DNA from: a virus
UHGV virus genome: UHGV-0048975
DNA: 20,483 bases
Strand: one strand, 5' to 3'
The translations under genes and the position numbers were made by a program. Every line of letters starts with the position of its first letter. Within the stretch, counting starts at the first letter, position 1. Of this stretch, positions 4,934-20,483 are shown one piece after another. Under the pieces are notes generated by a model. It was not told the origin of the DNA. It did no database searches and saw only the letters and a program-made list of their open reading frames with translations.

Positions 4934-5787
4934 GCACCATCCTGAAATGGGCGGGAAATAAAACCGCCATTATGTCCGAACTGAAAAAGCATCTTCCTGC
5001 TGGCCCGCGACTGGTTGAACCTTTCGCGGGTTCCTGTGCAGTGATGATGGAGACGGAGTACCCCAGCTATCTTGTTGCGGATATTAATCCTGATTTAATC
5101 AACCTCTATAAAAAGGTTGCTGCTGATTGTGAATCGTTTATATCTCGCGCCAGAGTTTTATTTGAGATCGCAAACAGGGGGGGGGCTTATTACAACATAA
5201 GGCAGGAGTTTAATTACTCAACTGAAATTACTGATTTCATGAAAGCGGTATATTTCCTGTATCTCAATCGTCACGGTTACCGTGGTTTATGTCGCTATAA
5301 CAAGAGCGGGCATTTCAACATTCCCTACGGTAATTATAAAAATCCGTATTTCCCTGAAAAAGAAATTCGCGCATTTGCAGAAAAAGCCCAGCGAGCAACG
5401 TTTATCTGCGCCAGCTTTGATGAAACGCTGGCGATGTTGAAGGCGGGGGATGTGGTGTATTGCGATCCGCCGTATGACGGTACGTTTTCCGGCTATCACA
5501 CTGATGGTTTCACTGAAGATGACCAGTATCACCTGGCATCCGTTCTTGAACATCGGTCATCAGAAGGACATCCGGTCATTGTTTCTAACAGTGATACATC
5601 CCTGATCCGTTCGCTGTATCGCAATTTTACTCACCACTATATCAAGGTAAAACGCAGCATCGGTGTGGCAGCTGGCGAGGGTAAATCAGCAACAGAAATC
5701 ATTGCTGTTTCCGGGCCGCGCTGCTGGGTGGGATTTGATTATTCGCGTGGCGTGGATAGTTCTGCCGTGTACGGAGTACGTGCATGA
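4930..5787 (+). CDS. dam: Orphan DNA adenine methyltransferase (Dam / D12-class N6-MTase)
   Basis: LKWAGNK N-terminal motif and DPPY catalytic motif; ATG at 4930 overlaps the upstream stop (ATGA), GGAGG 6 nt upstream; no restriction partner nearby. Confidence 0.9.
5177..5185 (+). repeat. Homopolymeric G9 tract inside the dam coding frame
   Basis: Nine consecutive G read directly (codons AGG GGG GGG in ANRGGAYY). Confidence 0.9.
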
Positions 5788-8198
5788 GCCATGCCGATAT
5801 GAACAACTGCTGCGGCTTTAACGAGGCTGCCGCAGCGTTCTCATGGAACAGCCCGAAAAAGGCCATTAACCCTTATCTGGACCCGGCGGAAGTTGCGCCG
5901 GTTTCTGCGCTTTCAAACCTGATCGCTCTGTACGCTGCCGATAACGAACAGGAACACCTGCGCCGCGAGGCACTGAGTGATCAGGTCTGGGAGCGTTATT
6001 TCTTTAATGAATCCCGTGATCCTGTCCAGCGCGAAATGGAGCAGGATAAGCTCATTAGTCGGGCAAAGCTGGCGCATGAGCAGCAGCGTTTTAATCCAGA
6101 TATGGTCATTCTGGCGGACGTCAATGCCCAGCCTTCCCATATCAGCAAGCCGCTGATGCAACGTATTGAATACTTCAGCAGCCTGGGCAGGCCAAAGGCT
6201 TATTCCCGCTATTTGCGTGAGACGATTAAGCCATGTTTGGAGCGACTGGAGCATGTACGCGACAGCCAGCTATCTGCATCTTTTCGTTTTATGGCAAGCC
6301 ATGTAGGGCTGGACGGCCTGCTGATTCTGCCTGAAATGAGTCAGGATCAGGTGAAACGCCTGTCTACTCTTGTCGCTGCGCATATGAGCATGTGTCTTGA
6401 TGCCGCTTGTGGTGATTTGTACGCCACCGATGATGTTAAGCCAGAAGAAATCCGCAAGACATGGGAAAAGGTGGCAGCAGAAACCCTGCGACTGGATGTT
6501 ATCCCGCCTGCGTTTGAGCAACTTCGTCGGAAAAGAAACCGCCGTAAACCCGTGCCCTATGAACTCATTCCGGGTTCGCTGGCGCGTATGTTGTGCGCCG
6601 ATTGGTGGTACCGGAAATTATGGAAGATGCGTTGCGAATGGCGGGAAGAGCAGTTGCGTGCTGTTTGCCTGGTCAGCAAAAAAGCATCTCCCTATGTCAG
6701 CTATGAAGCCGTGATGCATAAACGTGAGCAGCGCCGTAAGTCGCTGGAGTTTTTCCGTTCTCATGAACTGGTGAACGAAGACGGCGACACGCTGGACATG
6801 GAGGATGTGGTAAACGCCAGCAGCAGCAACCCGGCGCATCGCCGCAATGAGATGATGGCCTGTGTTAAAGGTCTGGAGCTTATCGCAGAAATGCGCAGTG
6901 ACTGTGCCGTTTTCTACACTATCACCTGTCCGTCGCGTTTCCATTCCACGCTCAATAACGGCAGACCAAACCCGACCTGGACAAACGCGACGGTAAGACA
7001 AAGCAGCGATTATCTGGTCGGCATGTTTGCTGCATTTCGTAAGGCTATGCACAAAGCCGGGTTGCGCTGGTATGGCGTGCGGGTGGCTGAACCGCATCAT
7101 GACGGCACAGTTCACTGGCACCTGTTGTGTTTCATGCGCAAAAAAGACCGCCGCGCCATTACTGCATTGTTGCGTAAGTTTGCCATCCGTGAAGACCGCG
7201 AGGAGCTGGGCAATAACACGGGGCCACGCTTTAAGTCTGAGCTGATAAACCCGCGCAAAGGTACGCCAACAAGCTACATCGCGAAATACATCAGTAAGAA
7301 CATTGACGGGCGTGGTCTGGCTGGCGAGATCAGCAAGGAAACGGGTAAATCCCTGCGTGATAACGCTGAATACGTTAATGCCTGGGCGTCTCTGCATCGT
7401 GTTCAGCAATTCCGCTTCTTTGGTATTCCGGGGCGTCAGGCTTACCGTGAACTTCGCTTGCTGGCTGGTCAGGCGGCAAGGCAACAGGGTGACAAAAAAG
7501 CAGGTGCGCCGGTACTGGATAACCCGCGTCTTGATGCCATTCTGGCTGCTGCTGATGCTGGTTGTTTTGCCACCTACATCATGAAGCAGGGCGGCGTACT
7601 GGTTCCCCGTAAATATCACCTCATCAGAACCGCTTATGAAATCAACGAAGAGCCGACCGCCTATGGCGATCACGGCATTCGTATTTATGGCATCTGGTCA
7701 CCCATTGCAGAGGGCAAGATCTGCACTCATGCAGTGAAGTGGAAAATGGTTCGTAAAGCCGTTGACGTTCAGGAGGCGGCAGCCGACCAGGGCGCTTGCG
7801 CCCCTTGGACTCGTGGCAATAACTGTCCCCTTGCTGAAAATTTGAACCAACAGGATAAAGATAAATCAGCTGATGGGGACACCAGAACGGACATTACCCG
7901 CATGGATGACAAGGAATTGCACGATTACCTGCACAGTATGAGCAAAAAAGAGCGCCGGGAACTGGCAGCAAGGTTACGCCTAGTTAAGCTGAAACGGCGT
8001 AAAGACTACAAACAGCGAATTACAGATCATCAGCGACAGCAGCTCGTCTATGAGCTGAAGTCCAGAGGATTTGATGGCAGCGAGAAAGAGGTCGATTTAC
8101 TCCTACGTGGTGGCAGTATTCCGTCAGGAGCAGGCCTGCGTATCTTCTATCGGAACCAGCGTTTGCAGGAAGATGATAAGTGGCGGAACCTGTATTAA
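5784..8198 (+). CDS. P2 gpA-like rolling-circle replication initiator
   Basis: 804 aa; HUH-type motif [10 protein letters not shown] and downstream YIAKYISK tyrosine motif; position after dam as in P2-like early operons; start overlaps dam stop (ATGA). Confidence 0.85.
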
Positions 8199-8289
8199 TT
8201 ACGCAGGTTAACAATTCGTGCTCTTAATAATACCAGGCATATCAGGCTGATGAACGTAAAAAACGTTTTACATCAGTAATATTATTATA

Positions 8290-8309
8290 TACTGTAAATA
8301 CAAACAGTG
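8290..8309. promoter_or_regulatory. LexA box (SOS operator) TACTGTAAATACAAACAGTG
   Basis: CTGT-N8-ACAG core at 8292-8307, 16/20 match to the LexA consensus TACTGTATATATATACAGTA; lies about 40 bp upstream of the 8350 ATG and overlaps the likely -10 region. Confidence 0.7.
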
Positions 8310-8349
8310 GTTATGTATACAGTGTTGCTTTGGTGTCATAGGAGGAAAG

Positions 8350-8538
8350 ATGCAGGACTATTTTTTGGAGTCTTTGAAGCTCCAGCGCATTGATTTTTTT
8401 CTTAAGCTTGTAGCGGCTAGTGAGTGTAGTGATGAAGAGAAGGGGCTGGCTCTGCAGTGGGTTTCTGAACTGACAGATGAACTCATGGCAAAAATCAGAA
8501 CCCACGAATACAACCGCTCAATGGATGTCATCAGCTGA
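8350..8538 (+). CDS. Small SOS-controlled protein (62 aa); candidate Tum-like antirepressor N-terminal part
   Basis: AGGAGG RBS, downstream of the LexA box, at the position of the 186 SOS operon (tum); function by position only. Confidence 0.5.
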   Translation: MQDYFLESLKLQRIDFFLKLVAASECSDEEKGLALQWVSELTDELMAKIRTHEYNRSMDVIS

Positions 8539-8548
8539 GGTGGCTTTT

Positions 8549-8782
8549 ATGCGCATTGAAATAATGATCGATAAAGAGCAGAAGATTAGCCAGTCTACCC
8601 TGGACGCCCTTGAATCCGAGCTTTACCGTAATTTGCGCCCTCTGTATCCCAAAACAGCAATTCGTATCCGTAAGGGCAGCGCCAATGGCGTTGAGCTGAG
8701 CGGGTTAAAACTGGATGAAGACAAAAAGCGAGTGATGGAAATAATGCAGCAGGTCTGGGAGGACGATAGCTGGCTGCATTAA
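8549..8782 (+). CDS. DinI-family protein
   Basis: MRIEIMIDKEQKISQSTLDALESELYRNLRPLYP...VMEIMQQVWEDDSWLH resembles DinI (MRIEVTIAK...ETWESADDWF); GAGGTGG RBS; second gene of the LexA-controlled pair. Confidence 0.8.
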   Translation: MRIEIMIDKEQKISQSTLDALESELYRNLRPLYPKTAIRIRKGSANGVELSGLKLDEDKKRVMEIMQQVWEDDSWLH

Positions 8783-8790
8783 GAAACATT

Positions 8791-8821
8791 GTAGGCGTCA
8801 GAACTTGATTCTGACGCCTAC
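8791..8821. terminator. Perfect 11-bp stem hairpin (GTAGGCGTCAG / CTGACGCCTAC) between convergent operons
   Basis: Seen directly; the T-rich run is better on the minus-strand side, so it probably terminates the minus-strand three-gene operon and possibly acts bidirectionally. Confidence 0.5.
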
Positions 8822-8877
8822 GAGGTTGAACAACGAGTAAGGCGAGGCGTTAGGTGAAGTAACTCCTTATAAGCCAT

Positions 8878-9561
8878 CTATGATTGAAGGGTGACTTTTT
8901 TTAACGTATCAAAAACGATTTTCGTAAACTCATTCTCATTTCTAACATCAATATAAGCAAGGCCGCTATTGGTGATCTTGAGCTTACCGGAATATTCTAA
9001 TGAATTAACAGAGCAAACAAGCCTGTCAATTCTTATTTTTTTACCCTCTAATTCTTCTTTATAATACTTCCTAAGATCATTGCTGCCAATTATTTGCATT
9101 TTAGCTGTGGCGTAATCAGAAACTCTAACCCTTGAAATATCAAGTTGTGTTAAATTGATATTTACACTTGAAGATATTTCATTAAGCCAGTCTATAGGGT
9201 TTATGTCAATTTCTTCCAAACTAACACCTAAGCCAAGATTTTTTACCAAAGCCTGCGAAAAAGGCTTTAAAGTTCTGGGTGGGTTAGTAATCTGCATTAC
9301 AGGAAGAGAGTCTAAAGCCACGCTAAAATTTGTGGTGCGATATTCGATTCTTTCAACGGTAGTTTCGCTTCCGTCAAAGCTTAATATTTTATCATGATAA
9401 ACAATACGCTCGACAAAGCGACCATTTGCAAAATCATGGCGTATTTTATCAAAAATGAACCCTTTCCCTTTATCCTCTGTAAAAGAATCAAGAGAAAGAC
9501 GTCTAACGGCTGTTTCAAACTCAAGCCGTATGTTTAACTTAAGCCATTTAACCTTTTTCAT
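8878..9561 (-). CDS. Hypothetical protein, third gene of three-gene cargo operon (227 aa)
   Basis: ATG at 9561 lies inside the 3' end of the upstream gene (14-nt overlap); AT-rich; no recognisable motif. Confidence 0.75.
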   Translation of the reverse strand: MKKVKWLKLNIRLEFETAVRRLSLDSFTEDKGKGFIFDKIRHDFANGRFVERIVYHDKILSFDGSETTVERIEYRTTNFSVALDSLPVMQITNPPRTLKPFSQALVKNLGLGVSLEEIDINPIDWLNEISSSVNINLTQLDISRVRVSDYATAKMQIIGSNDLRKYYKEELEGKKIRIDRLVCSVNSLEYSGKLKITNSGLAYIDVRNENEFTKIVFDTLKKVTLQS

Positions 9562-10627
9562 CTTCGTTCACCTCTGATCCTATTATTATATTATAGGCAT
9601 TTTCAGCGGCGGACTCAATTAATTCACTAATATGTTTTTTCTCTTGTGCCGTTGCCGCGCGAATGGTTACATTGAAACCGTCTTCTTTTTGATTGTTTAT
9701 ACCTTTAATTTGATAGGCAAAGTCACAGCATTTTTCTGAGTCTTTGAAAAATGCTTCGACGTTGATTCTGTCTCCAATTCCACTTGTCGGCTTTGAAGAC
9801 CATGCAATACGCCCGATATAATAACCTTTCTCATGTAGTTGAGAAAATATAGCTGAACTATTTACCCCTTCACCATTAAGGACGGCTTTCTTAACAAATC
9901 CGGTATCAATAGTTTCTTCCTTGTCTTCATCCTCACTAGCATCAGTACTGCGATTTAATTCGACTTTTGTTACGTCATCAGTCTCATAACCGCGTAGACC
10001 ATTCATTAATTCCTGAAAAAACTGACTTCGCAATGTAGGATCAGTTATTGCTAGTAATGATATTTCGAAGCGCTCGATAGGTTCGGACTTGATTTTAGAT
10101 AGCTCGTTTTGCAAGCTCTCAATAACTTTTTTTGCCTCGGGGTTTTGAGGCATACGTACTTCAACTTTGTCAGCTCCAGGGCGAAGTTCTATTATAACAT
10201 TCCGCTTGTCGATCTGACGTAATGCAGTTTTAGACAGGTCTATTTCTTCATATTTGTATTCTACTGTAAGCGAGCCATCTTTTTTAGCTACAATATTCAG
10301 GCTTTGACCTTTACTAGGGGAGCATGTTTTTTTTAGTGCTTCAGCAGCACTTTTTAATTCGGCCTGATTTGTTGAGGTTTGGAAGCTCACACTAGTAGTG
10401 CTTTCCCTTGGGTCATATGTTTTGACCAGTTTTTTTATGTGTTCTAATTCATTAAATCCGTGAGGAAGTTTGGATATTTCCTCGATTAGTATTTCCTTGT
10501 CGAGTTCTGGTGATAAAAACACACCTCGATTCAACAATAATTCATGCAACTTTGCAGCGGTTATCCTTTTATGATGTAATGCATCATAAATATTTTTATC
10601 AGTTGCGAAATATAGTTTTTTAGCCAT
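9548..10627 (-). CDS. Hypothetical protein, second gene of three-gene cargo operon (359 aa)
   Basis: Start overlaps the upstream stop (TAATG); acidic internal stretch; no Walker A or other known motif seen. Confidence 0.8.
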   Translation of the reverse strand: MAKKLYFATDKNIYDALHHKRITAAKLHELLLNRGVFLSPELDKEILIEEISKLPHGFNELEHIKKLVKTYDPRESTTSVSFQTSTNQAELKSAAEALKKTCSPSKGQSLNIVAKKDGSLTVEYKYEEIDLSKTALRQIDKRNVIIELRPGADKVEVRMPQNPEAKKVIESLQNELSKIKSEPIERFEISLLAITDPTLRSQFFQELMNGLRGYETDDVTKVELNRSTDASEDEDKEETIDTGFVKKAVLNGEGVNSSAIFSQLHEKGYYIGRIAWSSKPTSGIGDRINVEAFFKDSEKCCDFAYQIKGINNQKEDGFNVTIRAATAQEKKHISELIESAAENAYNIIIGSEVNEDEKG

Positions 10628-11628
10628 TATCGTTGCTCCATGCCGATTTGTTCAAGATTATATTCAACAACAATTTTGTCTGTCTTGTCGAAGTCAATTT
10701 TAAGAAAAAGTCTTTCATCCTCGCCTAAGAGCCAGTCTGTGCTGTATTTCTTTTTCGCTCTTTCAAAATGATGAATGGCATTTTCATTTGGGTGAATGTG
10801 ACAATGGCGTAATACGATTGGTTTACCTTCGGTTAATATCTGATAAGTTGATAACATATCAAAGAAGTAAACGAATTCGTCTACTGAATCCCCCGGTTGA
10901 TTGTAATAAACAACATATCCCTCAGGGTTTTTATCCCTGAGCCAACTGAAAGCCTCATGCTTTATTATAATGTATGGTGATGTTAATAATTCAATTGTTG
11001 CAGGTGTTGTCTGATTAATAGGGTGCTTTATTCTTGTTAGGGAAAGATCTGGATAATAATATGTGAACTTATCAGGTTGAGGAAGTTTGCCTGAACCAAT
11101 TAACTTAGTTATGTCAGAAGATATGTTTATCAAATCTGATATTTTATAAGGGTCAAGCAAATGTAGTTTGATGTTTGGAGGGCAATTTATAGATGAGTGA
11201 TCTAATTTTTTTGTAATATTCTCATAGAAGTCTTTATCATATAAATTATCATGGTTATATAAGAATAATAACCCTCTTACGTTATAACCTAAAGAATCAT
11301 CATGAACATATTTCAATCGCCATTCTTCACTGACATTTGCACACTCGGTAGCTAAAGCAAGCGATGTTAAAGCTCCCTCGACTATTTTTTTCCCAATAGT
11401 ACCTTCTGCATAGCTTTTGAGGTCTGTGTTGAGATAGACCATTTCCTCCTCATATGGATCTATGTAGAAAAATACAACATCGCTTGGATGTGTTTTCTTG
11501 GAATGAGCCTCTTGGCAACAATCCCAATTCATGTCCGCTCTAGCGGCACGATCCCATTTGAACACTGAGAAAATATCATCAGAAATCTTACCCGCGACTC
11601 GTTGTATAGCCGAAGTCTCTCCACCCAT
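10627..11628 (-). CDS. Hypothetical protein, first gene of three-gene cargo operon (333 aa); weak PD-(D/E)xK-like signature
   Basis: GGAG RBS 9 nt upstream of the ATG; possible nuclease-like pattern FFYIDP...MVYLNTDLK (tentative); AT-rich. Confidence 0.8.
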   Translation of the reverse strand: MGGETSAIQRVAGKISDDIFSVFKWDRAARADMNWDCCQEAHSKKTHPSDVVFFYIDPYEEEMVYLNTDLKSYAEGTIGKKIVEGALTSLALATECANVSEEWRLKYVHDDSLGYNVRGLLFLYNHDNLYDKDFYENITKKLDHSSINCPPNIKLHLLDPYKISDLINISSDITKLIGSGKLPQPDKFTYYYPDLSLTRIKHPINQTTPATIELLTSPYIIIKHEAFSWLRDKNPEGYVVYYNQPGDSVDEFVYFFDMLSTYQILTEGKPIVLRHCHIHPNENAIHHFERAKKKYSTDWLLGEDERLFLKIDFDKTDKIVVEYNLEQIGMEQR

Positions 11629-11698
11629 TTCAATCTCGCTCCTTTACAATTGCTGTGGCAATCTGCCTGAAAATCCATCTGACTTGATGAGTAATCTA

Positions 11699-11710
11699 AC
11701 CATATGGTTC
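11699..11710. promoter_or_regulatory. Perfect 12-bp palindrome AACCATATGGTT in the control region upstream of the three-gene operon
   Basis: Seen directly, about 70 bp upstream of the operon start; possible operator. Confidence 0.3.
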
Positions 11711-11778
11711 GTATGCGTTTGTTGCATGACTATAGCGCATGAAAATGAATGATCGCAAAAGGATCGTTTTTGCTCAGT

Positions 11779-11801
11779 CCCGCCAGTTCTGGCGGGCTTT
11801 T
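11779..11801 (+). terminator. Intrinsic terminator-like hairpin CCCGCCA-GTTC-TGGCGGG followed by CTTTT, with no upstream plus-strand gene
   Basis: 7-bp GC stem, tetraloop and T-run on the plus strand only; no plus-strand CDS upstream, so it may end a small non-coding transcript or insulate the downstream module. Confidence 0.45.
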
Positions 11802-11933
11802 ACTTATGTCATGCAGGTGCATGAAAACCACTACACAAAGCGGGCAGGCGTGGCGGGGATACGAGCGCGCGCTGTGCGTGGTTGTAAAAGGAAATTGTTT
11901 TCGGTATAACCACTTCCATTAGAAGGAGAATTT

Positions 11934-12179
11934 ATGAAAATTTTTGCAATAGTCATTACATGTATGCTGGCATCGATTGCAGGATTATGGCTTTATATGG
12001 ATCCTGGTTTTGATTCTATTGTTGCATTTTTGGCTGCAGTTAGCGCTTTAGCTGGATTACTTATCACTACAAAAAATAAATATAATTCTATGAGCCAATC
12101 AGTTGGTGATAATTCAACTGCTGTCCAGGCTAGAGGTGATATTAAAATTGATTGTATAAATACAGGTGATAAAAAATAA
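11934..12179 (+). CDS. Small membrane protein (81 aa, two predicted TM helices)
   Basis: AAGGAG RBS; hydrophobic segments IFAIVITCMLASIAGLWLYM and IVAFLAAVSALAGLLITT; C-terminal tail shares a motif with the N-terminus of the next protein. Confidence 0.7.
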   Translation: MKIFAIVITCMLASIAGLWLYMDPGFDSIVAFLAAVSALAGLLITTKNKYNSMSQSVGDNSTAVQARGDIKIDCINTGDKK

Positions 12180-12188
12180 GGAGGATAT

Positions 12189-13046
12189 ATGTTTAGTGAT
12201 AAGCAAAAGCAACAAATAGGTAATAATTCGTATGCAATTCAAGCTGGAAATAATGTAAATGTTTCAGGGATGTCGTTTTCCGAGGTTAGAGAACTATTCA
12301 ACATTCTCTTCGAAAATCAGTTTCCAAAATTGAAAGATGTTGCTTATGCTGCAGCTCAAGAGAATGCAAAAGATTTTGAAGAGCGTGTCGTTTCGGATTT
12401 AACAAAAAACGTTGATAGATTGATTATTGATAAATTTTGCGATCCGGACGTTCAGGCTACATTGACTGAGGCATTAAAGTCATCAGCCAGGAAGGGAAAG
12501 AAAGCTAATATGGATGTGCTTTCTCAGTTGTTAGTTGAACGAGTCTCCAATAACAATGACGATTTTAGAGATATAGTTTTAACGGAGGCAGTTACCGTCG
12601 TTCCCAAGTTAACACAGCAACAAATATCACTTATAACGATAGTTTTTCTTCTCAAGAATGTTGAGATCAAAGACCCTGTTAATGGTGTTCGATTGGATTT
12701 GTTGGAGCACAATTTTAGAAACTTTGAATCAATGTATACTAATGGGTTTAATTTGTCTCAAGCCCAGATATATCACATTCAATATGCAGGGGCTTGTTCA
12801 TGGAATACTTTTTTAGGGATGGATGTTGAAGACTATTTTATGAGTAAATATCCGACTGATATAAAAGATAAGAGTGCATATATTTCAAATCTTAAGTTAG
12901 TTGCCCCTCATGTGTCTGCATTTTTAGAAAAATTTTCAAAGAGCAACTATCAAGGAATTGAATTAACAAGTGTAGGGCAAGCAATTGCTCTGGCTGTTTT
13001 TTCAAGATACGTAGGAAGATTGGATTATAATATTTGGTTAAAGTAG
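12189..13046 (+). CDS. Hypothetical cargo protein (285 aa), partner of the small membrane protein
   Basis: AAGGAGGA RBS immediately after the upstream stop; AT-rich; N-terminus KQQIGNNSYAIQAGNNVNV parallels SQSVGDNSTAVQARGDIKI in the upstream protein. Confidence 0.8.
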   Translation: MFSDKQKQQIGNNSYAIQAGNNVNVSGMSFSEVRELFNILFENQFPKLKDVAYAAAQENAKDFEERVVSDLTKNVDRLIIDKFCDPDVQATLTEALKSSARKGKKANMDVLSQLLVERVSNNNDDFRDIVLTEAVTVVPKLTQQQISLITIVFLLKNVEIKDPVNGVRLDLLEHNFRNFESMYTNGFNLSQAQIYHIQYAGACSWNTFLGMDVEDYFMSKYPTDIKDKSAYISNLKLVAPHVSAFLEKFSKSNYQGIELTSVGQAIALAVFSRYVGRLDYNIWLK

Positions 13047-13075
13047 GGCATTATTTGCCCTACTTTATTATAATT
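13043..13075. terminator. Bidirectional terminator hairpin GTAGGGCA-TTATT-TGCCCTAC followed by a T-rich run
   Basis: 8-bp stem overlapping the stop codon of the 285-aa gene, then TTTATTATAATT; lies between convergent genes. Confidence 0.6.
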
Positions 13076-13630
13076 CATATGGTTGGAAAGAAATTATTTC
13101 ATCACTCAACCATTCATTAATTTCTTTAATTCGCTTTTGCAGCGGTATCAATTCGTTACGGACAAACACCTTACTCGCCTTTTCCACATCCCCAAATCCC
13201 CCAACATTACTCGGCATAATCCCCATCATCTGCGGCGGAACGCGGTGTGCAGCCATCATGTCGTCTCGGCTCACGTTCTTAATGTTCAGAAACTCATCCT
13301 TTGCCGCTACCTCTGACAGCGGGATTATCTGAATCCCGTCCTTTTTGCCGTTGGGTGAATACATAAACAGGTTGCGGAAGTTGCCCGGTCCTTTAGCGCT
13401 TTTCATGGCCTGGCGGATGTTGTTCACGTCCTCCTGGTTCTGCGCGGCGTCGGTCATATACATGATGAACCCTGCATGACTGCCATTGATGTAGTATTTA
13501 CGCCGGAACAGCGTAGCGGACTCGTTCAGCAAGGCGGACGGAATGGCGGACAGATATTCCGGCAGGCCGTAAATTTCCTGGTTCAGGTCCGGCTCCATCA
13601 GGTGAAAGATACTGCCTTTAGTGAACTCGT
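13068..13630 (-). pseudogene. Portal protein gene remnant (3' half only; P2 gpQ-like)
   Basis: C-terminal portal-like sequence (...GIMPSNVGGFGDVEKASKVFVRNELIPLQKRIKEINEWL...); only ~180-190 codons where P2-type portals are about 340; the 5' boundary is approximate. Confidence 0.65.
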
Positions 13631-13639
13631 AGGGCTGCG

Positions 13640-13934
13640 TGGTTACACCCTGAACGTGGTGATTGAGGATTTCAGCGGCGACCAGAATCTGCTGATGGCC
13701 CCGGTTTTGCTGTGGCTGCGGGATAACCAGCCCGATGCCATCAATAACCCGGCGTTACGGGAAAAACTATTTACCTTTGAGGTGGATATTCTGCGCAACG
13801 ATGTCTGTGATATCAGCCTTAACCTGCAACTGACGGAACGTGTGCTGGTCAGCACTGACGGCAGTGTGTCGAGCGTTGAAGCGGTAGCAGAACCCGATGA
13901 ACCTGAAGAAATGTGGACGGTGAAACGTGGCTGA
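13640..13934 (+). pseudogene. Tail completion protein R gene remnant (3' part; P2 gpR-like)
   Basis: YTLNVVIEDFSGDQNLLMAPVLLWLRDNQPD...LNLQLTERVLVS resembles P2 gpR; the upstream part of the track ORF is antisense to the portal remnant, so the N-terminus is missing. Boundary approximate. Confidence 0.6.
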
Positions 13935-14373
13935 ACTGCAGAAGGTGGACGACTGGCTTAGTGCCTTACTGGCGAATCTGGAACCAGTCGCAAGAAGCCG
14001 CATGATGCGCCAGCTGGCGCAGGAACTGCGCCGGACACAGCAGCAGAATATCAGGATGCAGCGCAATCCAGATGGCAGCAGTTATGAACCGCGCAAGGTC
14101 ACGGCGCGCAGTAAAAAAGGCCGCATCAAACGTCAGATGTTTGCAAAGCTGCGCACCACCAAATACCTGAAAACTGCCGCCAGCGCCGATTCTGCCAGCG
14201 TGCAGTTTGAAGGTAAGGTGCAGCGCATTGCCCGCGTTCACCATTATGGCCTGCGCGATCGCGTCAGCCGCAAAGGACCGGAAGTGCGTTACGCAGAGCG
14301 TCGTTTGTTGGGTCTTAATGGTGAGTCTTACGTTCTAACTCTTGATATATTGAATAGATTCCTTCTGTCTTGA
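13927..14373 (+). CDS. Tail completion / virion morphogenesis protein S (P2 gpS-like)
   Basis: 148 aa, GTG start overlapping the R stop; basic central region typical of the gpS family; the last ~17 codons are AT-rich and overlap the convergent membrane-protein gene. Confidence 0.8.
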   Translation: MAELQKVDDWLSALLANLEPVARSRMMRQLAQELRRTQQQNIRMQRNPDGSSYEPRKVTARSKKGRIKRQMFAKLRTTKYLKTAASADSASVQFEGKVQRIARVHHYGLRDRVSRKGPEVRYAERRLLGLNGESYVLTLDILNRFLLS

Positions 14374-15121
14374 ATTCACCATATGCCCAATGAATTGCAT
14401 TTTTTTGTTCAGTCAGAATATATTTCCTAACTTTTTTAGAATAGTGAATGGTCAGTATAAAACCCAAAGAAATCCATAATAGAATAAATATGGTTGTTGG
14501 GGCAAAGGAATAGATAAAGAATTTGTCTTTAACGAAATTCTTGACTTCTTCATCAATGTAAGCATTCCCTTCATCAGTGGTTAGTAGTTTACAAAGAATT
14601 TCTTTATGTTCGATAGTTAATGATTTGTACTTCTCTGTACTGGCAGAGGATGACTCTTCGCAATCATCCTTTGATATTTCCCAATCAGGAGTGGTTAATA
14701 TTGTAGCTGCAGTCGCCAGTTTTTTTGACATATAAAATGATTCACCGGATTTTATCCAATAAAGCAATGTGCTATTTGGTGGGGTTCTAATGGCTTGGAT
14801 GAAAACTGGACCAAAAATATAAATTGCACACAAAAAAAGAAGTGAAAAGAGAACCGTGATTGATTTTTCAGCCCATGTGATAGTAGGCAGCCTTTTTAAT
14901 GATATTCGTATAAGAAAAAAATTCAATATAAACGCAGGTATTCCTGATTTTTTCAAAATTACATCATGAGATTTTCTATATTTGAATAGTGCTCTTATAA
15001 CTATCGTCACCAAAGTTATAACAGCTCCAATAATGGAAATCCATGCGGCAAGTGCCGCTGCCGGGGTGTTTAAAAATTCAGCATTAAATATATTAGAACT
15101 TATTGGATTCATAACACTCAT
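14315..15121 (-). CDS. AT-rich multi-pass membrane protein (268 aa) inserted between tail genes S and V
   Basis: GGTGG RBS 4 nt upstream of the ATG; several hydrophobic helices (AALAAWISIIGAVITLVTIVI, ITVLFSLLFLCAIYIFGPVFI, IFILLWISLGFILTI); opposite strand to the tail genes. Confidence 0.75.
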   Translation of the reverse strand: MSVMNPISSNIFNAEFLNTPAAALAAWISIIGAVITLVTIVIRALFKYRKSHDVILKKSGIPAFILNFFLIRISLKRLPTITWAEKSITVLFSLLFLCAIYIFGPVFIQAIRTPPNSTLLYWIKSGESFYMSKKLATAATILTTPDWEISKDDCEESSSASTEKYKSLTIEHKEILCKLLTTDEGNAYIDEEVKNFVKDKFFIYSFAPTTIFILLWISLGFILTIHYSKKVRKYILTEQKNAIHWAYGEFKTEGIYSIYQELERKTHH

Positions 15122-15224
15122 TTATCCACCTATTGGTTGTTTTTTATCCTTTTATCAATTTGTACCATCGATACCACAATTTGCAAGAAGTTATAAACAA
15201 GTTTTCAGCTGTCATCATATATCT

Positions 15225-15803
15225 ATGAACGCACAACTAACCGAAATCATGCGCCTTATCACCAATCTGATCCGCATAGGTGTAGTCACCGAAGTGGACC
15301 GGGAAAACTGGCTTTGTCGGGTGAAAACGGGCGACCTTGAAACCAACTGGATTAACTGGCTGACGCTGCGCGCGGGTAATGCCCGCACATGGTGGCGACC
15401 ATCGGAAGGTGAGCAGGTGGTGCTGCTGAGTCTGGGCGGCAATCTGGAAACCGCCTTTGCGTTACCCGCCATCTATTCGAATCAGTTCGCGCCACCTTCG
15501 ACGTCGGCGGACGCCTGCGTGACAGAACATCCTGACGGCGGCTGGTTTGAATACGAACCCGCCACCGGGCGCTGGTATGTCAGGGGCATCAAATCAATGG
15601 TCATTGAGGCCGCTGACAATATCACCCTGAAAACCAGTGAGTTTATGCTGGAGGCTGACCGCACGCGTATTAACAGCGAAGTGGTGATCAATGGTGGCGT
15701 TACCCAGGGCGGTGGAGCGATGAGCTCTAACGGGATTGTGGTTGATGCGCATCAGCATACTGGCGTCCTGAAAGGCGGCGACACAACCGGAGGTCCGGTA
15801 TGA
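15225..15803 (+). CDS. Baseplate assembly protein V (P2 gpV-like)
   Basis: MNAQLTEIMRLITNLIRIGVVTEVD... typical of gpV; the track ORF from 14982 is an antisense over-extension. Confidence 0.85.
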   Translation: MNAQLTEIMRLITNLIRIGVVTEVDRENWLCRVKTGDLETNWINWLTLRAGNARTWWRPSEGEQVVLLSLGGNLETAFALPAIYSNQFAPPSTSADACVTEHPDGGWFEYEPATGRWYVRGIKSMVIEAADNITLKTSEFMLEADRTRINSEVVINGGVTQGGGAMSSNGIVVDAHQHTGVLKGGDTTGGPV

Positions 15804-16159
15804 CGCTTTATAGCGGGATGAACAATACCAGCGGCAAAGCCATTACTGATATTGACCATCTGCGCCAGTCGGTGCGGGACATTCTGCTGACACCGCAGGG
15901 TAGCCGTATTGCCCGTCGGGAATATGGTTCTCTGCTGTCGGCACTGATAGACCAGCCACAAAATCCGGCATTACGCCTGCAGGTCATGTCGGCAGTGTAT
16001 GTGGCGCTGAGTCGCTGGGAGCCACGGCTGACGCTGGATTCCATCACCATCAACAGCGATTTTGACGGTTCAATGGTGGTGGAGCTGACCGGGCGGCGTA
16101 ATAACGGTGTGCCTGTTTCCCTTTCCGTATCAACAGGAGCAGAGAATGGCAGTGATTGA
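15800..16159 (+). CDS. Baseplate wedge protein W (P2 gpW / GPW-gp25 family)
   Basis: 119 aa; ATGA overlap with the V stop; sequence DILLTPQGSRIARREYGSLL typical of the gpW/gp25 family. Confidence 0.85.
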   Translation: MTLYSGMNNTSGKAITDIDHLRQSVRDILLTPQGSRIARREYGSLLSALIDQPQNPALRLQVMSAVYVALSRWEPRLTLDSITINSDFDGSMVVELTGRRNNGVPVSLSVSTGAENGSD

Positions 16160-17054
16160 CCTTTCGCAGTTGCCTGCGCCGCAGATTGTGGATGTGCCGG
16201 ACTTTGAGACGCTGCTTGCCGAACGCAAGGCAGAATTTGTGGCGCTTCATCCGAAAGATGAGCAGGAAGCAGTGATCCGCACGCTGGAACTGGAATCTGA
16301 ACCCGTCACCAAATTGTTGCAGGAGAACGCTTACCGTGAGTTGCTTCTGCGCCAGCGCATTAACGAAGCCGCGCAGGCGGTGATGGTGGCTTATGCGATG
16401 GGCGGCGATCTTGACCAGCTCGCTGCCAACTACAACGTGAAACGCCTGACGGTGACGCCTGCTGATGATGACGCTGTGCCGCCCGTTGCAGCTGTGATGG
16501 AAAGCGATGAAGCGTTACGCCTGCGTGTGCCTGCAGCCTTTGAAGGGCTTTCAGTTGCGGGGCCAACTGCAGCTTATGAATTTCATGCCCGAAGCGCCGA
16601 CGGTCGGGTGGCGGATGCCAGTGCAACCAGTCCGGCACCTGCAGAGGTGGTGCTGACTGTCCTTAGCCGCGAAGGCGATGGAACAGCAGAAAAAGACTTG
16701 CTGGATGTGGTGGAGAAAGCCCTGAACAGTGAGAACGTCCGCCCGGTGGCTGACCGTCTGACGGTTCGCAGCGCAGAAATCATCCCGTACCGCGTGGAAG
16801 CCACCATTTTTCTCTATCCGGGACCGGAAGCAGAGCCGGTAATGGCAGCGGCAAAAGCCAGTCTGCAGAAGTACATCGCCAGTCAGACGCGTCTTGGCCG
16901 GGATATTCGCCGTAGCGCCATCTTTGCCGCCCTGCATGTTGAGGGTGTGCAGCGTGTGGAGCTGGCTTCGCCGCTGGCGGATGTGGTCCTGAACAAAACA
17001 CAGGCGGCATCATGTACGCAGTGGAGCGTAACCAACGGAGGAACGGATGAATAG
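16146..17054 (+). CDS. Baseplate assembly protein J (P2 gpJ-like)
   Basis: ATG at 16146 after AGGAG, overlapping the W 3' end; about 300 aa, in the conserved V-W-J-I order. Confidence 0.85.
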   Translation: MAVIDLSQLPAPQIVDVPDFETLLAERKAEFVALHPKDEQEAVIRTLELESEPVTKLLQENAYRELLLRQRINEAAQAVMVAYAMGGDLDQLAANYNVKRLTVTPADDDAVPPVAAVMESDEALRLRVPAAFEGLSVAGPTAAYEFHARSADGRVADASATSPAPAEVVLTVLSREGDGTAEKDLLDVVEKALNSENVRPVADRLTVRSAEIIPYRVEATIFLYPGPEAEPVMAAAKASLQKYIASQTRLGRDIRRSAIFAALHVEGVQRVELASPLADVVLNKTQAASCTQWSVTNGGTDE

Positions 17055-17652
17055 TCTGCTGCCACCGGGTTCAACTTCACTGGAGCGCCGACTGGCGCAA
17101 ACCTGCAGCGGGATTTCTGATTTGCAGGTGCCGCTGCGTGACTTGTGGAATCCAACGACCTGTCCGGTCAGTTTCCTGCCTTATCTCGCCTGGGCGTTCT
17201 CTGTGGATCGCTGGGACGAGGACTGGACGGAAAGTGTCAAACGCCAGGTGGTGAAGGATGCTTTTTATATTCATCAGCATAAAGGAACCACCAGTGCCGT
17301 GCGGCGGGTGGTGGAGCCGTTCGGCTTTCTGATCCGCATTATTGAGTGGTGGCAGACCGGAGAAACACCAGGCACGTTTCGCCTGGATATCGGCGTGCAG
17401 GATCAGGGCATCACTGAAGATACCTATCTGGAACTTGAGCGACTGATAAGCGATGCCAAACCATGTAGCCGTCACATGATCGGCATGTCCATCAATCTGC
17501 AGACCAGCGGCCCGCATTGGGTGGGAGCCGCCAGTTATCTTGGCGAAGAAATCACGATCTATCCGTATATCAACGAAACAATTATTTCCGGCGGCACCGC
17601 GCATGAAGGCGGGGCGGTCCATGTTATTGACACAATGAGAGTGAATCCATGA
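17047..17652 (+). CDS. Tail protein I (P2 gpI-like)
   Basis: Start overlaps the J stop; conserved position between J and the tail-fibre gene. Confidence 0.85.
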   Translation: MNSLLPPGSTSLERRLAQTCSGISDLQVPLRDLWNPTTCPVSFLPYLAWAFSVDRWDEDWTESVKRQVVKDAFYIHQHKGTTSAVRRVVEPFGFLIRIIEWWQTGETPGTFRLDIGVQDQGITEDTYLELERLISDAKPCSRHMIGMSINLQTSGPHWVGAASYLGEEITIYPYINETIISGGTAHEGGAVHVIDTMRVNP

Positions 17653-19163
17653 GCACAAAATTTTATACCCTGCTGACGGATATTGGCGCGGCGAAACTTG
17701 CCAGCGCCGCCGCGCTCGGTGTGCCTTTAAAAATTACCCATATGGCGGTCGGCGATGGCGGCGGAACATTACCAACGCCGGACGCAAAGCAGACAGCACT
17801 GGTAAATGAGAAACGCCGGGCTGCGCTGAATATGCTCTATATCGACCCGCAGAACAGCAGCCAGATTATTGCTGAACAGGTGATCCCTGAAAACGAGGGC
17901 GGTTGGTGGATACGTGAAGTGGGCTTGTTTGATGAGTCCGGGGCATTGATTGCCGTGGGTAACTGCCCGGAAAGCTATAAGCCGCAACTGGCTGAAGGCA
18001 GTGGGCGTACCCAGACCGTGCGCATGGTGCTGATTACCAGCAGTACGGGCAATATCATCCTGAAAATCGACCCTGCTGTAGTGCTGGCAACCCGCAAGTA
18101 TGTGGATGACAAGGCACTGGAGCTGAAGGTGTACGTGGATGACCTGATAGCAAAACATCTTGCCGCACTGGACCCGCATTCACAGTATGCACCCAAAGAA
18201 AGTCCGACATTTACCGGAACCCCCAAAGCGCCAACGCCAGCGGCGGGGAATAATACCACTCAGCTTGCGACCACCGCATTTGTTCAGGCGGCACTGACGG
18301 CCCTGATTAATGGTGCGCCAGCCACGCTGGACACGCTGAAAGAAATAGCCGCAGCCATTAACAATGACCCGAAATTCAGTACCACCATTAACAATGCGCT
18401 GGCACTGAAAGCGCCGCTGTCGAATCCGGCACTCACCGGAACGCCAACAGCCCCCACGGCGGCGCAGTCGGTCAACAATACACAGATTGCCACTACGGCT
18501 TTTGTGAAATCGGCGATTGCGGCAATGGTGGGTTCTGCACCTGCGGCACTGGATACACTGAACGAACTGGCGGCGGCACTGGGGAATGATCCGAACTTTG
18601 CCACGACAATGCTTAATGCGCTGGCAGGTAAACAACCGCTGGACAATACGCTGACTAATTTGAGTGGAAAGGATGTAGCTGGTCTTCTCACATACCTTGG
18701 TTTGGGAGAAGGTTCGGCATTACCCGTTGGTGTGCCTGTCCCGTGGCCTTCCGCCACTCCGCCAACAGGCTGGCTAAAATGCAATGGTGCGGCTTTTTCT
18801 GCTGAAGAATACCCGGAACTGGCAAAGGTTTATCCGACAAATAAATTGCCTGATTTACGCGGTGAATTTATTCGTGGCTGGGATGACGGACGTGGAGTGG
18901 ATGCCGGGCGACAATTATTATCTTCACAGGGGGATGCAATAAGAAATATTGAGGGATTCGCAGATGGCGGGATCGGTATGTCTTTTGATGCAATCAGAGG
19001 GGCTTTTTACGATGCAGGAACACGATCAGCGAGAATGCCGAATAACACAACTACTATAGACAAAACCGATGACCTTGGATTCGACGCCTCTCGTGTCGTG
19101 CCAACAGCTAATGAAAACCGTCCACGTAACATCGCCTTTAATTATATTGTGAGGGCTGCATAA
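17649..19163 (+). CDS. Tail fibre protein (P2 gpH-like) with C-terminal receptor-binding module
   Basis: 504 aa; conserved N-terminus MSTKFYTLLTDIGAAKLA...; repeated ...TPxAPT...TQLATTAFV motifs; the C-terminal module (from about 18783) is repeated downstream. Confidence 0.9.
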   Translation: MSTKFYTLLTDIGAAKLASAAALGVPLKITHMAVGDGGGTLPTPDAKQTALVNEKRRAALNMLYIDPQNSSQIIAEQVIPENEGGWWIREVGLFDESGALIAVGNCPESYKPQLAEGSGRTQTVRMVLITSSTGNIILKIDPAVVLATRKYVDDKALELKVYVDDLIAKHLAALDPHSQYAPKESPTFTGTPKAPTPAAGNNTTQLATTAFVQAALTALINGAPATLDTLKEIAAAINNDPKFSTTINNALALKAPLSNPALTGTPTAPTAAQSVNNTQIATTAFVKSAIAAMVGSAPAALDTLNELAAALGNDPNFATTMLNALAGKQPLDNTLTNLSGKDVAGLLTYLGLGEGSALPVGVPVPWPSATPPTGWLKCNGAAFSAEEYPELAKVYPTNKLPDLRGEFIRGWDDGRGVDAGRQLLSSQGDAIRNIEGFADGGIGMSFDAIRGAFYDAGTRSARMPNNTTTIDKTDDLGFDASRVVPTANENRPRNIAFNYIVRAA

Positions 19164-19358
19164 TGAAACCTGTTTTTGATGAAAATGGGCTGGCTACAGT
19201 ACCGGGTAATATGCGTTGTTTTTATTATGAGGCAGTTACGTATGAATATACTGGCTGGTCTGATGAATATATTAATACTGGCGTAAGTATGCCCGCCTGT
19301 TCCACTGGTATTGACCCGGGCGAATACATTCCGGGAAGAGTGGCAGTATTTAACGGGG
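19163..19358 (+). CDS. Tail fibre assembly (chaperone) gene copy 1, 5' part only, interrupted by the N run
   Basis: First 64-65 codons nearly identical to the complete copy at 19840; TAATG overlap with the tail-fibre stop. Confidence 0.5.
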
Positions 19359-19458
19359 NNNNNNNNNNNNNNNNNNNNNNNNNNNNNNNNNNNNNNNNNN
19401 NNNNNNNNNNNNNNNNNNNNNNNNNNNNNNNNNNNNNNNNNNNNNNNNNNNNNNNNNN
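19359..19458. other. Run of 100 N (assembly gap or masked sequence)
   Basis: Read directly; flanked by two near-identical repeat copies. Confidence 1.
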
Positions 19459-19840
19459 CAACGGGGCTGCTTTTTCGGCTGAAGGATACCCGGAACTGGC
19501 AAAGGCTTACCCGACAAATAAATTGCCTGATTTACGCGGTGAATTTATTCGTGGCTGGGATGACGGACGTGGTGTGGATGCCGGGCGACAATTATTATCT
19601 TCACAGGGGGATGCAATAAGAAATATTGAGGGATTCGCAGATGGCGGGATCGGTATGTCTTTTGATGCAATCAGAGGGGCTTTTTACGATGCAGGAACAC
19701 GATCAGCGACAATGGCGAATAACACAACTGCTATAGGCAAAACCGATGACCTTGGATTCGACGCCTCTCGTGTCGTGCCAACAGCTAATGAAAACCGTCC
19801 ACGTAACATCGCCTTTAATTATATTGTGAGGGCTGCATAA
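19459..19840 (+). other. Second copy of the tail-fibre C-terminal module, lacking its own start codon
   Basis: Encodes NGAAFSAEGYPELAKAYP...NYIVRAA in the same frame as the upstream chaperone fragment; any expression would need fusion across the gap. Confidence 0.6.
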
Positions 19841-20433
19841 TGAAACCTGTTTTTGATGAAAATGGGCTGGCTACAGTACCGGGTAATATGCGTTGTTTTT
19901 ATTATGAGGCAGTTACGTATGAATATACTGGCTGGTCTGATGAATATATTAATACTGGCGTAAGTATGCCCGCCTGTTCCACTGGTATTGACCCGGGCGA
20001 ATACATTCCGGGAAGAGTGGCAGTATTTACGGGTAAGGGATGGAGCCATGAAGAAGACCATCGCAATGAGACTGTTTACTCAACAGAAAATGGCGCAGCT
20101 GTTACAGTGGATTATATCGGTGCCATCAAAGACGGTTATGTCACGCTTTCACCGTTAACGCCATACGATAAATGGGATGGTGAGAAATGGGTGACGGATA
20201 CCGAGGCACAGCATAGCGCCGCACTAGACGCGGCAGAAGTAAAGCGCCAGTCGCTGATTGATGCTGCAATGGCTTCCATCAGTCTGATTCAGCTGAAATT
20301 ACGGGCCGGGCGGAAGCTGACGCAGGCAGAAACCACCCGACTTAACGCTGTGCTGGATTACATTGACGCGGTGGAGGCAACAGATACCAGCACCGCGCCT
20401 GATGTCATCTGGCCTGAACTGCCGGAGGCGTAG
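19840..20433 (+). CDS. Tail fibre assembly protein (gpG / Tfa family), complete copy
   Basis: 197 aa; TAATG overlap with the preceding module's stop; N-terminus MKPVFDENGLATVPGNMRCFYYEAVTYEYTGW. Confidence 0.85.
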   Translation: MKPVFDENGLATVPGNMRCFYYEAVTYEYTGWSDEYINTGVSMPACSTGIDPGEYIPGRVAVFTGKGWSHEEDHRNETVYSTENGAAVTVDYIGAIKDGYVTLSPLTPYDKWDGEKWVTDTEAQHSAALDAAEVKRQSLIDAAMASISLIQLKLRAGRKLTQAETTRLNAVLDYIDAVEATDTSTAPDVIWPELPEA

Positions 20434-20451
20434 GCCATTCAATATCTGGCG

Positions 20452-20478
20452 CACTGGAAGTATCGACCAGTTCCAGTG
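20452..20478 (+). terminator. Hairpin (8-bp stem CACTGGAA / TTCCAGTG, 11-nt loop) downstream of the chaperone gene; possible terminator
   Basis: Seen directly; the window ends before any T-run can be assessed. Confidence 0.3.
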
Positions 20479-20483
20479 CGTCC

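What the first reader, a model, noticed from the sequence alone, without database searches (positions are those of the whole stretch)
18783..20035. Tandem duplication of tail-fibre tip and chaperone interrupted by 100 N; the same 7-mer flanks the gap
The tail-fibre C-terminal module plus the first ~190 nt of the chaperone gene occur twice in direct orientation with a few amino-acid differences, so the copies are diverged rather than identical. The last 7 bases before the N run (AACGGGG) equal the 7 bases that start the second copy, so the true junction might be a direct in-frame fusion of chaperone codons 1-64 to a second receptor-binding module, or the gap may hide real sequence. Either the locus carries alternative receptor-binding tips (host-range variation) or the assembler collapsed a repeat.
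Basis: seen in the sequence. Interest (0 to 1): 0.5.

Follow-up and report, generated by a model that had tools for sequence, protein, structure and literature searches.

The report
Duplicated tail-fibre tip flanking scaffold gap
The apparent second copy of a phage tail-fibre tip and chaperone start is most likely two overlapping, unmerged contigs at the end of a draft E. coli scaffold, so it is probably an assembly artefact, though a strain-specific rearrangement is not excluded.

Summary
18782-19351 and 19459-20028 are 570-nt direct copies with 12 mismatches. They flank exactly 100 N, and AACGGGG lies on both sides of the gap.

The repeat boundaries are simply the two contig ends. The window is the last 20 kb of scaffold JH660540.1 of Escherichia sp. 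4_1_40B. The second contig is only 1,159 nt and ends the scaffold.

The locus is a defective P2-like prophage. Its fibre gene carries a Gin/Cin/Pin-type crossover site (18688-18710) and is followed by convergent chaperone genes. This is the known invertible host-range segment.

Of the 24 contigs read that carry the identical 504-aa fibre gene, only the source has the duplication. The largest single-copy group (21) is represented by L004, which is 100% identical over 7.7 kb. No junction or fusion protein was found in any collection searched.

The second tip is an allele typical of other prophage families.

Best reading (about 0.5): a false duplication made from two co-resident alleles of a multi-copy module.

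Rival (about 0.35): a real, strain-specific, in-frame capture. Contig 1's last six bases match the second allele, which chance explains poorly.

On either reading it is not a designed pair of alternative tips. Interest is low.

The parts
17649..19163 (+). Tail-fibre gene (P2 gpH-like, 504 aa) carrying tip allele T1
   Evidence: ORF. Pfam Phage_tail_fib (aa 1-150) and Collar (aa 361-408). Synteny V-W-J-I-H-chaperone.
18688..18710 (.). Left crossover site of the invertible segment, at the junction of the constant and variable parts of the fibre gene
   Evidence: Single match in the window, 0 expected by chance. In relatives it pairs with an inverted copy, CTTCTCCCAAACCAACGTTTATGA, about 1.8 kb downstream next to the invertase gene.
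18782..19351 (+). Copy 1 of the repeat: tip T1 from Asn379, the fibre stop codon, and chaperone codons 1-63
   Evidence: alignment. 100% identical to single-copy relatives L004-L006.
19163..19358 (+). Chaperone gene fragment (65 codons) cut off by the contig end; annotated ESBG_05073, partial
19353..19358 (+). Aberrant last 6 bases of contig 1 (ACGGGG). Every relative reads CGGGTA here. The 6 bases match bases 3-8 of contig 2, including two T2-specific bases.
   Evidence: alignment. In one search all 114 closed-genome matches lack the extra A.
19359..19458 (.). 100-N scaffold gap between two contigs
19459..20028 (+). Copy 2 of the repeat. It is the start of a 1,159-nt contig that runs to the scaffold end, 134 nt beyond the window.
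19460..19840 (+). Tip allele T2 (126 aa plus stop) with no start codon and no fibre shaft; annotated ESBG_05074, partial. It begins at Collar profile position 19 of 57.
   Evidence: The exact peptide sits in an ordinary fibre context in P0001/L008.
19840..20433 (+). Complete tail-fibre assembly (chaperone) gene, 197 aa
   Evidence: Caudo_TAP; Caudo_TAP_N.
20405..20483 (-). 3' end of a convergent second chaperone gene (tfa'), which runs off the window and then off the scaffold
   Evidence: Called gene in L007 at 8757-8969, minus strand, Caudo_TAP. Full 146-aa gene in relatives.

Best explanation
The locus is the invertible host-range segment of a defective P2-like prophage. It consists of the fibre constant part, a crossover site, the variable tip, a chaperone gene and a convergent chaperone gene. 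In relatives an alternative tip and a serine invertase follow.

The direct 'tandem duplication' is most likely not in the chromosome. It looks like two contigs that cover the same single-copy stretch, overlap by 570 nt and were not merged. The scaffolder then placed them end to end with a default 100-N gap.

They were not merged because the short second contig (1,159 nt) carries tip allele T2. T2 belongs to a second copy of this widely shared tip-plus-chaperone module elsewhere in the same genome or sample. That contig was then threaded through the identical chaperone sequence into this prophage's own downstream sequence.

Shown: the anatomy, the single-copy state in relatives, the foreign affinity of T2, and the coincidence of the repeat limits with the contig ends. 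Inferred: that a second module is present in strain 4_1_40B, and how the assembler behaved.
For: 1. The repeat limits are the two contig ends flanking the only gap. Contig 2 is 1,159 nt and ends the scaffold inside tfa'.
2. Of 24 contigs read that carry the identical 504-aa fibre, 23 are single copy. The largest group (21 contigs) is represented by L004, which is 100% identical to window 11649-19352 and shares the portal-to-R deletion.
3. In L004-L006, contig 1 continues without a break into sequence 100% identical to contig 2 from 19738 to 20617. The only differences are the 12 tip sites.
4. T2 is a common natural allele in other prophages. It is 99.6% identical to a P2-like prophage of strain 1332KP. 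The exact T2 peptide occurs in the 251-aa fibre family of prophages with a Mu-like baseplate beside dusA/pspG. The module also occurs in at least two further contexts.
5. The first base of contig 2 (C) fits the normal fibre codon TGC-AAC, not the chaperone TTT.
6. Half of closed E. coli genomes carry the module, with up to 8 places per genome.
7. The module often breaks assemblies. Many drafts have chaperone fragments of 68-104 aa at contig ends and stand-alone 1.5-1.8 kb contigs. One 'complete' assembly even has a 1,803-nt record made of the module alone (H35).
8. No junction was found in closed E. coli genomes: the 30 top rows listed of 1,662 matching records were all two-piece, single-copy arrangements. 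The junction 19-mer is absent from GTDB representatives, IMG/VR and JGI metagenomes. No fused protein exists in the collections searched.
9. The breakpoints cut the Collar domain and the Caudo_TAP_N region of the chaperone.
Against: Contig 1's last six bases (ACGGGG) are not the chaperone sequence found in every relative. They equal the start of T2, including two T2-specific bases. By chance this is about 2e-4, or it needs two homopolymer overcalls that happen to copy the other contig's start. It suggests that some reads really join chaperone codon 63 to T2.

Contig 2 starts inside the divergent block of natural T2-type alleles, which already differ at 18776. It does not start at the edge of that block.

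Contig 2's downstream 880 nt are purely this prophage's type. All six natural T2-type alleles examined differ there at 2 or more sites. On the artefact reading, contig 2 therefore has to be a chimera, or the second locus has to be unusually similar.

A second module in strain 4_1_40B was not demonstrated, because the rest of the assembly could not be searched.
Confidence: 0.5

Rival explanations
1. A real, strain-specific rearrangement. A 569-nt piece of a co-resident tail-fibre module (T2 from Asn379 through chaperone codon 63) was inserted into this prophage's chaperone gene. This would take one illegitimate join (chaperone codon 63 to Asn379) and one homologous join in the shared chaperone sequence. 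The result is fibre(T1), an in-frame Tfa(1-63)::T2 fusion ORF of 189 aa, and then an intact chaperone gene. The true gap would be an overlap of about 7 nt. In a prophage that has already lost its head genes the event would be neutral.
For: Contig 1's six-base tail equals the T2 start, with T2-specific C and G. No closed-genome allele has this tail. AACGGGG occurs only at the two gap edges. Contig 2 downstream of the tip is 100% this prophage's own type. The two contig ends are exactly the two sides of one junction. A repeat-resolving assembler would produce this if a second T2 locus also feeds into the T2 node. The join is in frame. This prophage lineage has had other recent rearrangements.
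Against: The duplication is absent from the other 23 contigs read with the identical fibre, including the 21-contig group whose representative L004 is 100% identical over 7.7 kb. The junction and the fusion protein are absent from every collection searched. The first base of contig 2 is C, not the T expected at the junction. The event needs a rare illegitimate join with a foreign donor. A simple duplication is excluded because the tail is T2-type, not T1-type. The join ignores the available ACGGG microhomology. The scaffold also ends 1.16 kb later, which points to a multi-copy module in any case.
Confidence: 0.35
2. The gap hides real extra sequence. The second copy would extend further upstream, for example as a complete second cassette with its own crossover site, as in multi-site inversion systems such as Min of plasmid p15B (from memory). 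The 7-mer would then be irrelevant.
For: The first base C of contig 2 fits a normal fibre codon upstream of T2. Natural T2 alleles are always preceded by a crossover site and a fibre constant part.
Against: No relative has a second direct cassette. A direct-repeat crossover site would promote deletion rather than inversion (established knowledge of serine invertases). The hypothesis does not explain the T2-type tail on contig 1. 100 N is a placeholder length, not a measurement.
Confidence: 0.06
3. A built-in diversification system that uses direct repeats, such as a diversity-generating retroelement (template and variable repeats) or cassette switching between two tips.
For: Two near-identical copies at the 3' end of a receptor-binding gene, differing only in the tip, look superficially like a variable/template repeat pair.
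Against: The 12 substitutions are of mixed types (T>C, T>G, G>T, A>G, A>T, G>C, C>G) and are not adenine-specific on either strand. No reverse transcriptase is annotated or called in this gene neighbourhood in the relatives; the window's own ORFs were not screened for one. Both alleles are ordinary natural alleles found at single-copy positions elsewhere. The copy boundaries cut through domains.
Confidence: 0.02

Closest known systems
Invertible tail-fibre host-range segments driven by serine invertases (Mu G segment/Gin, P1 C segment/Cin, e14 P segment/Pin; P2-like prophages with the same cassette)
   Same: There is a crossover site inside the fibre gene at the boundary of the constant and variable parts (18688-18710). 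The variable tip is followed by its chaperone gene, and a convergent second chaperone gene follows. In relatives there is also an inverted partner site, an alternative gp53-like tip and a Resolvase+HTH_7 recombinase. From memory, the site resembles hix/gix/cix/pix sites (TTCTCCCAAACCAA...).
   Different: The feature that was flagged is a direct repeat inside the segment, not the inverted arrangement. The partner site and invertase lie beyond the scaffold end. In at least two relatives with the identical fibre gene (L004, L005) they have been deleted.
False segmental duplication at scaffold gaps (unmerged overlapping contigs from two alleles or paralogues)
   Same: The duplication is bounded by contig ends, the gap has a placeholder length, and the copies are 98% identical. 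Closely related assemblies are single copy. The second copy carries the allele of a paralogous locus.
   Different: The last six bases of the left contig copy the first bases of the right contig. A plain unmerged overlap does not predict this.
Mosaic exchange of tail-fibre tip and chaperone modules between unrelated prophages
   Same: The same tip-plus-chaperone module, at 98-100% identity, occurs in four contexts: P2-like prophages, prophages with a Mu-like baseplate, a remnant beside rsmF/pphA, and a Phage_Wedge1 myovirus.
   Different: Known exchanges replace a module at homologous boundaries such as the crossover site. Here the putative join is inside the Collar domain and inside the chaperone N-domain.

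Membership tests
Gin/Cin/Pin-type invertible tail-fibre segment | Crossover site inside the fibre gene at the constant/variable junction | tested here: met
   18688-18710, a unique match with 0 expected by chance. Same position in relatives.
Gin/Cin/Pin-type invertible tail-fibre segment | Second crossover site in inverted orientation bounding the segment | tested here: inconclusive
   Not in the window, because the scaffold ends first. Present in relatives L001/L003/L006/L002 about 1.8 kb downstream. Deleted in L004 and L005.
Gin/Cin/Pin-type invertible tail-fibre segment | Two convergent tip-plus-chaperone cassettes | tested here: met
   The 3' end of tfa' lies on the minus strand at 20405-20483. 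Relatives have the full tfa' plus a gp53-like alternative tip. The alternative tip itself is outside the window.
Gin/Cin/Pin-type invertible tail-fibre segment | Adjacent serine recombinase (Resolvase + HTH_7) | tested here: inconclusive
   Outside the window. Present in H3, 1332KP and L006. No such gene is called in L004 or L005.
P2-like tail fibre (gpH) and chaperone (gpG) pair | Phage_tail_fib N-domain and a C-terminal receptor-binding tip, followed by a Caudo_TAP chaperone, in V-W-J-I-H-G synteny | tested here: met
   Pfam; synteny.
Genuine tandem duplication | A contiguous novel junction sequence joining the end of copy 1 to the start of copy 2 | not testable with these tools
   The junction is replaced by 100 N. 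Only a 6-7 nt overlap hints at it. Reads are needed.
Genuine tandem duplication | Found in independent assemblies of the same element | tested here: not met
   Only the source shows it among the 24 contigs read with the identical fibre. It is absent from the 30 top rows listed for closed E. coli genomes, and from GTDB representatives, IMG/VR, JGI metagenomes and the protein collections.
False duplication at a scaffold gap | Repeat boundaries coincide with contig ends, and close relatives are single copy and colinear across the gap | tested here: met
False duplication at a scaffold gap | Read depth and read pairs consistent with one copy at this locus, and a second locus that supplies the variant allele | not testable with these tools
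Diversity-generating retroelement | Differences between template and variable repeats restricted to adenines, plus a reverse transcriptase | tested here: not met
   The substitution types are mixed. No RT is annotated or called in the neighbourhood in relatives; the window's own ORFs were not screened.

The most novel reading that the evidence does not exclude
The junction is real. In strain 4_1_40B a receptor-binding tip from a co-resident, unrelated prophage was captured by an illegitimate in-frame join into the chaperone gene of a decaying P2-like prophage. This created a Tfa(1-63)::tip fusion next to the resident tip. It would be a snapshot of tail-fibre module shuffling by non-homologous capture between prophages in one cell.
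Probability: 0.35. Interest if true: 0.3.

Novelty: not a real feature. Interest (0 to 1): 0.12.

Why it matters
If it is an artefact, the value is practical. The two partial genes ESBG_05073 and ESBG_05074 and the apparent second tip should not be counted as host-range diversity. The case also shows how the widely shared, invertible tip-plus-chaperone module breaks short-read assemblies.

If the junction were real, it would be a single neutral rearrangement in a prophage that has lost its head genes (and, if it matches L004, its invertase too). That would be a modest illustration of illegitimate module capture, not a new mechanism.

Tried and rejected
- **Junction searches.** I searched for the junction 19-mer GTGGCAGTATTTAACGGGG in GTDB representatives, IMG/VR and JGI metagenomes and got 0 hits each. 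A 401-nt synthetic direct-fusion query against 5,426 closed E. coli genomes returned only two-piece, single-copy arrangements among the 30 rows listed.
- **Fusion protein searches.** The 189-aa fusion protein found no hit covering both halves. The exact sequence is not in the 15-billion-protein collection.
- **Natural chaperone allele.** I tested whether contig 1's tail is a natural chaperone allele. All 114 closed-genome matches lack the extra A, so this is rejected.
- **Invertase-mediated join.** The breakpoints are 73 nt and about 640 nt downstream of the crossover site, and the junction sequences have none of the AAACC..GGTTT core. Rejected.
- **DGR.** The substitution spectrum is not adenine-specific. 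Rejected.
- **Simple duplication of this locus.** The tail carries T2-specific bases. Rejected.
- **Contig 2 limits as allele boundaries.** I tested whether contig 2's start and end coincide with boundaries between allele types. Natural T2-type alleles already differ upstream at 18776, and nothing special happens at the scaffold end. Inconclusive.
- **Strain information.** I looked for the strain or assembly in the literature to learn the assembler. Nothing useful came back.
- **Second T2 locus.** I could not search the rest of the 4_1_40B assembly for a second locus carrying T2.
Full report
**Observation.** The window has one gap, exactly 100 N at 19359-19458. The 570 nt before it (18782-19351) align without gaps to the 570 nt after it (19459-20028). 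There are 12 mismatches, all between 18785 and 19060. The last 291 nt are identical: the fibre 3' end plus chaperone codons 1-63. Six mismatches change an amino acid. AACGGGG occurs only twice in the window, at 19352-19358 and 19460-19466. The second contig actually begins one base earlier, with a C. So the description is confirmed with that small correction.

**What the locus is.**
- Fibre gene: ORF 17649-19163 has a Phage_tail_fib N-domain and a Collar domain at aa 361-408.
- Chaperone gene: 19840-20433 is a Caudo_TAP chaperone.
- Synteny: upstream are baseplate genes V, W, J and I, so this is the gpH/gpG region of a P2-like prophage.
- Crossover site: TCACATACCTTGGTTTGGGAGAA lies in the fibre gene at 18688-18710, a unique match with none expected by chance. 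In relatives it forms an inverted repeat with CTTCTCCCAAACCAACGTTTATGA about 1.8 kb downstream.
- Rest of the segment: between the two sites relatives carry the tip, its chaperone, a convergent second chaperone and a gp53-like alternative tip. Just outside is a Resolvase+HTH_7 recombinase.
- Window end: the window finishes in the 3' end of the convergent chaperone gene.

This is the classical invertible host-range segment of the Mu G / P1 C / e14 P type. The similarity of the site to hix/gix/cix is from memory, not tested. The prophage is defective. Relative to strain H3 about 5 kb is missing, running from inside the portal gene to just upstream of gpR, with an 8-nt overlap at 13642-13649.

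**Source.** The window is positions 642234-662716 of scaffold JH660540.1, assembly GCA_000158415.2, Escherichia sp. 4_1_40B. The scaffold ends 134 nt after the window. The sequence after the gap is therefore a contig of only 1,159 nt. The two cut genes are annotated as partial: ESBG_05073 (65 aa) and ESBG_05074 (126 aa). Both limits of the duplication are contig ends.

**Relatives.**
- The exact 504-aa fibre protein is indexed in 104 blocks of the collection. Of the 24 contigs read, only the source shows the duplication.
- The largest single-copy group is L004 plus 20 similar places. L004 is 100% identical to window 11649-19352 and includes the portal deletion junction.
- In L004, L005 and L006 the sequence runs straight on from 19352 into sequence 100% identical to contig 2 from 19738 to the scaffold end. 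Contig 2 differs from these single-copy loci only at the 12 tip sites.
- The best closed-genome matches are also single copy.

**The second allele.** T2 is not noise. It is 99.6% identical to the tip-chaperone module of a P2-like prophage in strain 1332KP. Its exact 126-aa peptide occurs in an ordinary fibre context (...TGWLKC-NGAAF...) in another E. coli draft, P0001/L008. That fibre belongs to a 251-aa family in prophages with a Mu-like baseplate beside dusA/pspG. The module also sits beside an invertase near rsmF/pphA and in a Phage_Wedge1 myovirus. About half of closed E. coli genomes carry it, with up to 8 places per genome. Some genomes, such as GPEC1222 and 1332KP, carry both T1-like and T2-like copies at different loci. 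The module also breaks assemblies. Many drafts have 68-104-aa chaperone fragments at contig ends and stand-alone 1.5-1.8 kb contigs. One 'complete' assembly lists a 1,803-nt record made of this module alone (H35).

**The 7-mer.** Contig 1's last six bases (ACGGGG) are not chaperone sequence. H3, 1332KP, L004-L006 and all 114 closed-genome matches read CGGGTA there. They equal bases 3-8 of contig 2, including the two bases that distinguish T2 (AACGGGG) from T1 (AATGGTG). This excludes a simple duplication of this locus. It also makes chance a poor explanation, at about 2e-4. The alternative is two homopolymer overcalls, A to AA and GGG to GGGG, that happen to mimic the other contig's start. Against a clean junction, contig 2's first base is C, as in the normal fibre codon TGC, and not the T that a chaperone-to-tip junction would give. 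No junction or fusion exists anywhere else that I could search.

**Weighing the two readings.** Both need a second T2-bearing module in the sequenced DNA.
- *Artefact.* The scaffold strings together two overlapping contigs of one single-copy stretch. The short contig takes the T2 branch and then runs through the identical chaperone sequence into this prophage's downstream sequence. This fits the single-copy relatives, the contig-end boundaries, the scaffold ending 1.16 kb later, the C at 19459 and the known behaviour of this module. It leaves the six-base tail unexplained and requires contig 2 to be an A/B chimera. All six natural T2-type alleles examined differ from this prophage at 2 or more sites in the 880 nt downstream of the tip, whereas contig 2 does not.
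- *Real capture.* A strain-specific event joined chaperone codon 63 in frame to Asn379 of a foreign tip, with the second join homologous. This explains the tail, the downstream identity and both contig ends as the two sides of one junction. It needs a rare illegitimate event that arose after divergence from relatives with zero SNPs in 7.7 kb. It also leaves the C unexplained unless the donor locus is still present.

I put about 0.5 on the artefact, 0.35 on the real capture, and the remainder on hidden sequence or other causes. Only reads, PCR or long reads can decide.

**What it is not.** It is not a designed pair of alternative tips. The second copy starts at Collar profile position 19 of 57. 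It has no start codon and no shaft. The first copy of the chaperone stops at codon 63, inside its N-domain. It is not a DGR, because the substitution types are mixed. It is not invertase-made, because the breakpoints are 73 nt and about 640 nt from the crossover site and lack its core. Host-range switching at this locus works by the known inversion system. In relatives L004 and L005, which carry the identical fibre gene, the right-hand site and the invertase are deleted.

**Verdict.** The duplication is probably not a real feature, and on either reading it is of low interest. The underlying biology, a P2-like invertible fibre segment, is already known.

Noticed in passing
window 8878-11628 (minus strand; three ORFs 8878-9561, 9548-10627, 10627-11628): Three overlapping genes with no Pfam domain give full-length matches to PADLOC models Hp3, Hp2 and Hp1 (E 2e-157 to 1e-248). 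They sit between the replication gene/DinI and the portal gene. From memory, this is the P2 defence hotspot and these models belong to the 'Rst_3HP' system of Rousset et al. 2022. An LPO_1073/Vpar_1526-family gene follows at 12189-13046.
   Followed up: partly
window 13068-13598 (minus) and junction 13642-13649: A 176-aa portal fragment abuts the gpR/gpS tail genes. Relative to strain H3 about 5 kb is missing (rest of the portal gene, terminase, scaffold, capsid, small terminase and lysis remnant), with an 8-nt overlap at the junction. The prophage therefore cannot make heads. Relative L004 shares the same junction.
   Followed up: partly
window 14315-15121 (minus): A DUF6216 gene is inserted on the opposite strand between tail gene S and baseplate gene V. 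It overlaps the 3' end of S. It looks like a moron or cargo gene and is conserved in H3 and L004-L006.
   Followed up: no
L004 and L005 at about 8824 (L006 coordinates), 43 nt before the right crossover site at L006 8867: Two different deletions in relatives with the identical fibre gene share the same left endpoint (...GCTCCCATAT|). Both remove the right crossover site and the invertase gene, which freezes the segment. The shared endpoint suggests nested deletions or a recombination-prone point.
   Followed up: partly
NZ_CP148587.1 (1,803 nt; H35) and NZ_CP074007.1 positions 709-1733: A 'complete genome' assembly contains a stand-alone 1,803-nt record made only of this tip-chaperone-chaperone' module. 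Another chromosome record starts with the same coordinates. Both look like assembly by-products of the invertible or multi-copy segment.
   Followed up: no
L009-L012, L013-L014, L002: The same tip-plus-chaperone module (98-100% identity) is attached to unrelated fibre shafts in at least four prophage types: P2-like, Mu-like baseplate beside dusA/pspG, an invertase-linked remnant beside rsmF/pphA, and a Phage_Wedge1 myovirus. The exchange boundary is at the crossover site.
   Followed up: partly
window 2096-3809 versus 4064-19357 compared with strain H3: Identity to the H3 prophage is 99.9% in the tail region, 98.6% from 4064 to 13649, and only 88% across the repressor/early-control region (2096-3809). 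The immunity region is therefore mosaic.
   Followed up: no
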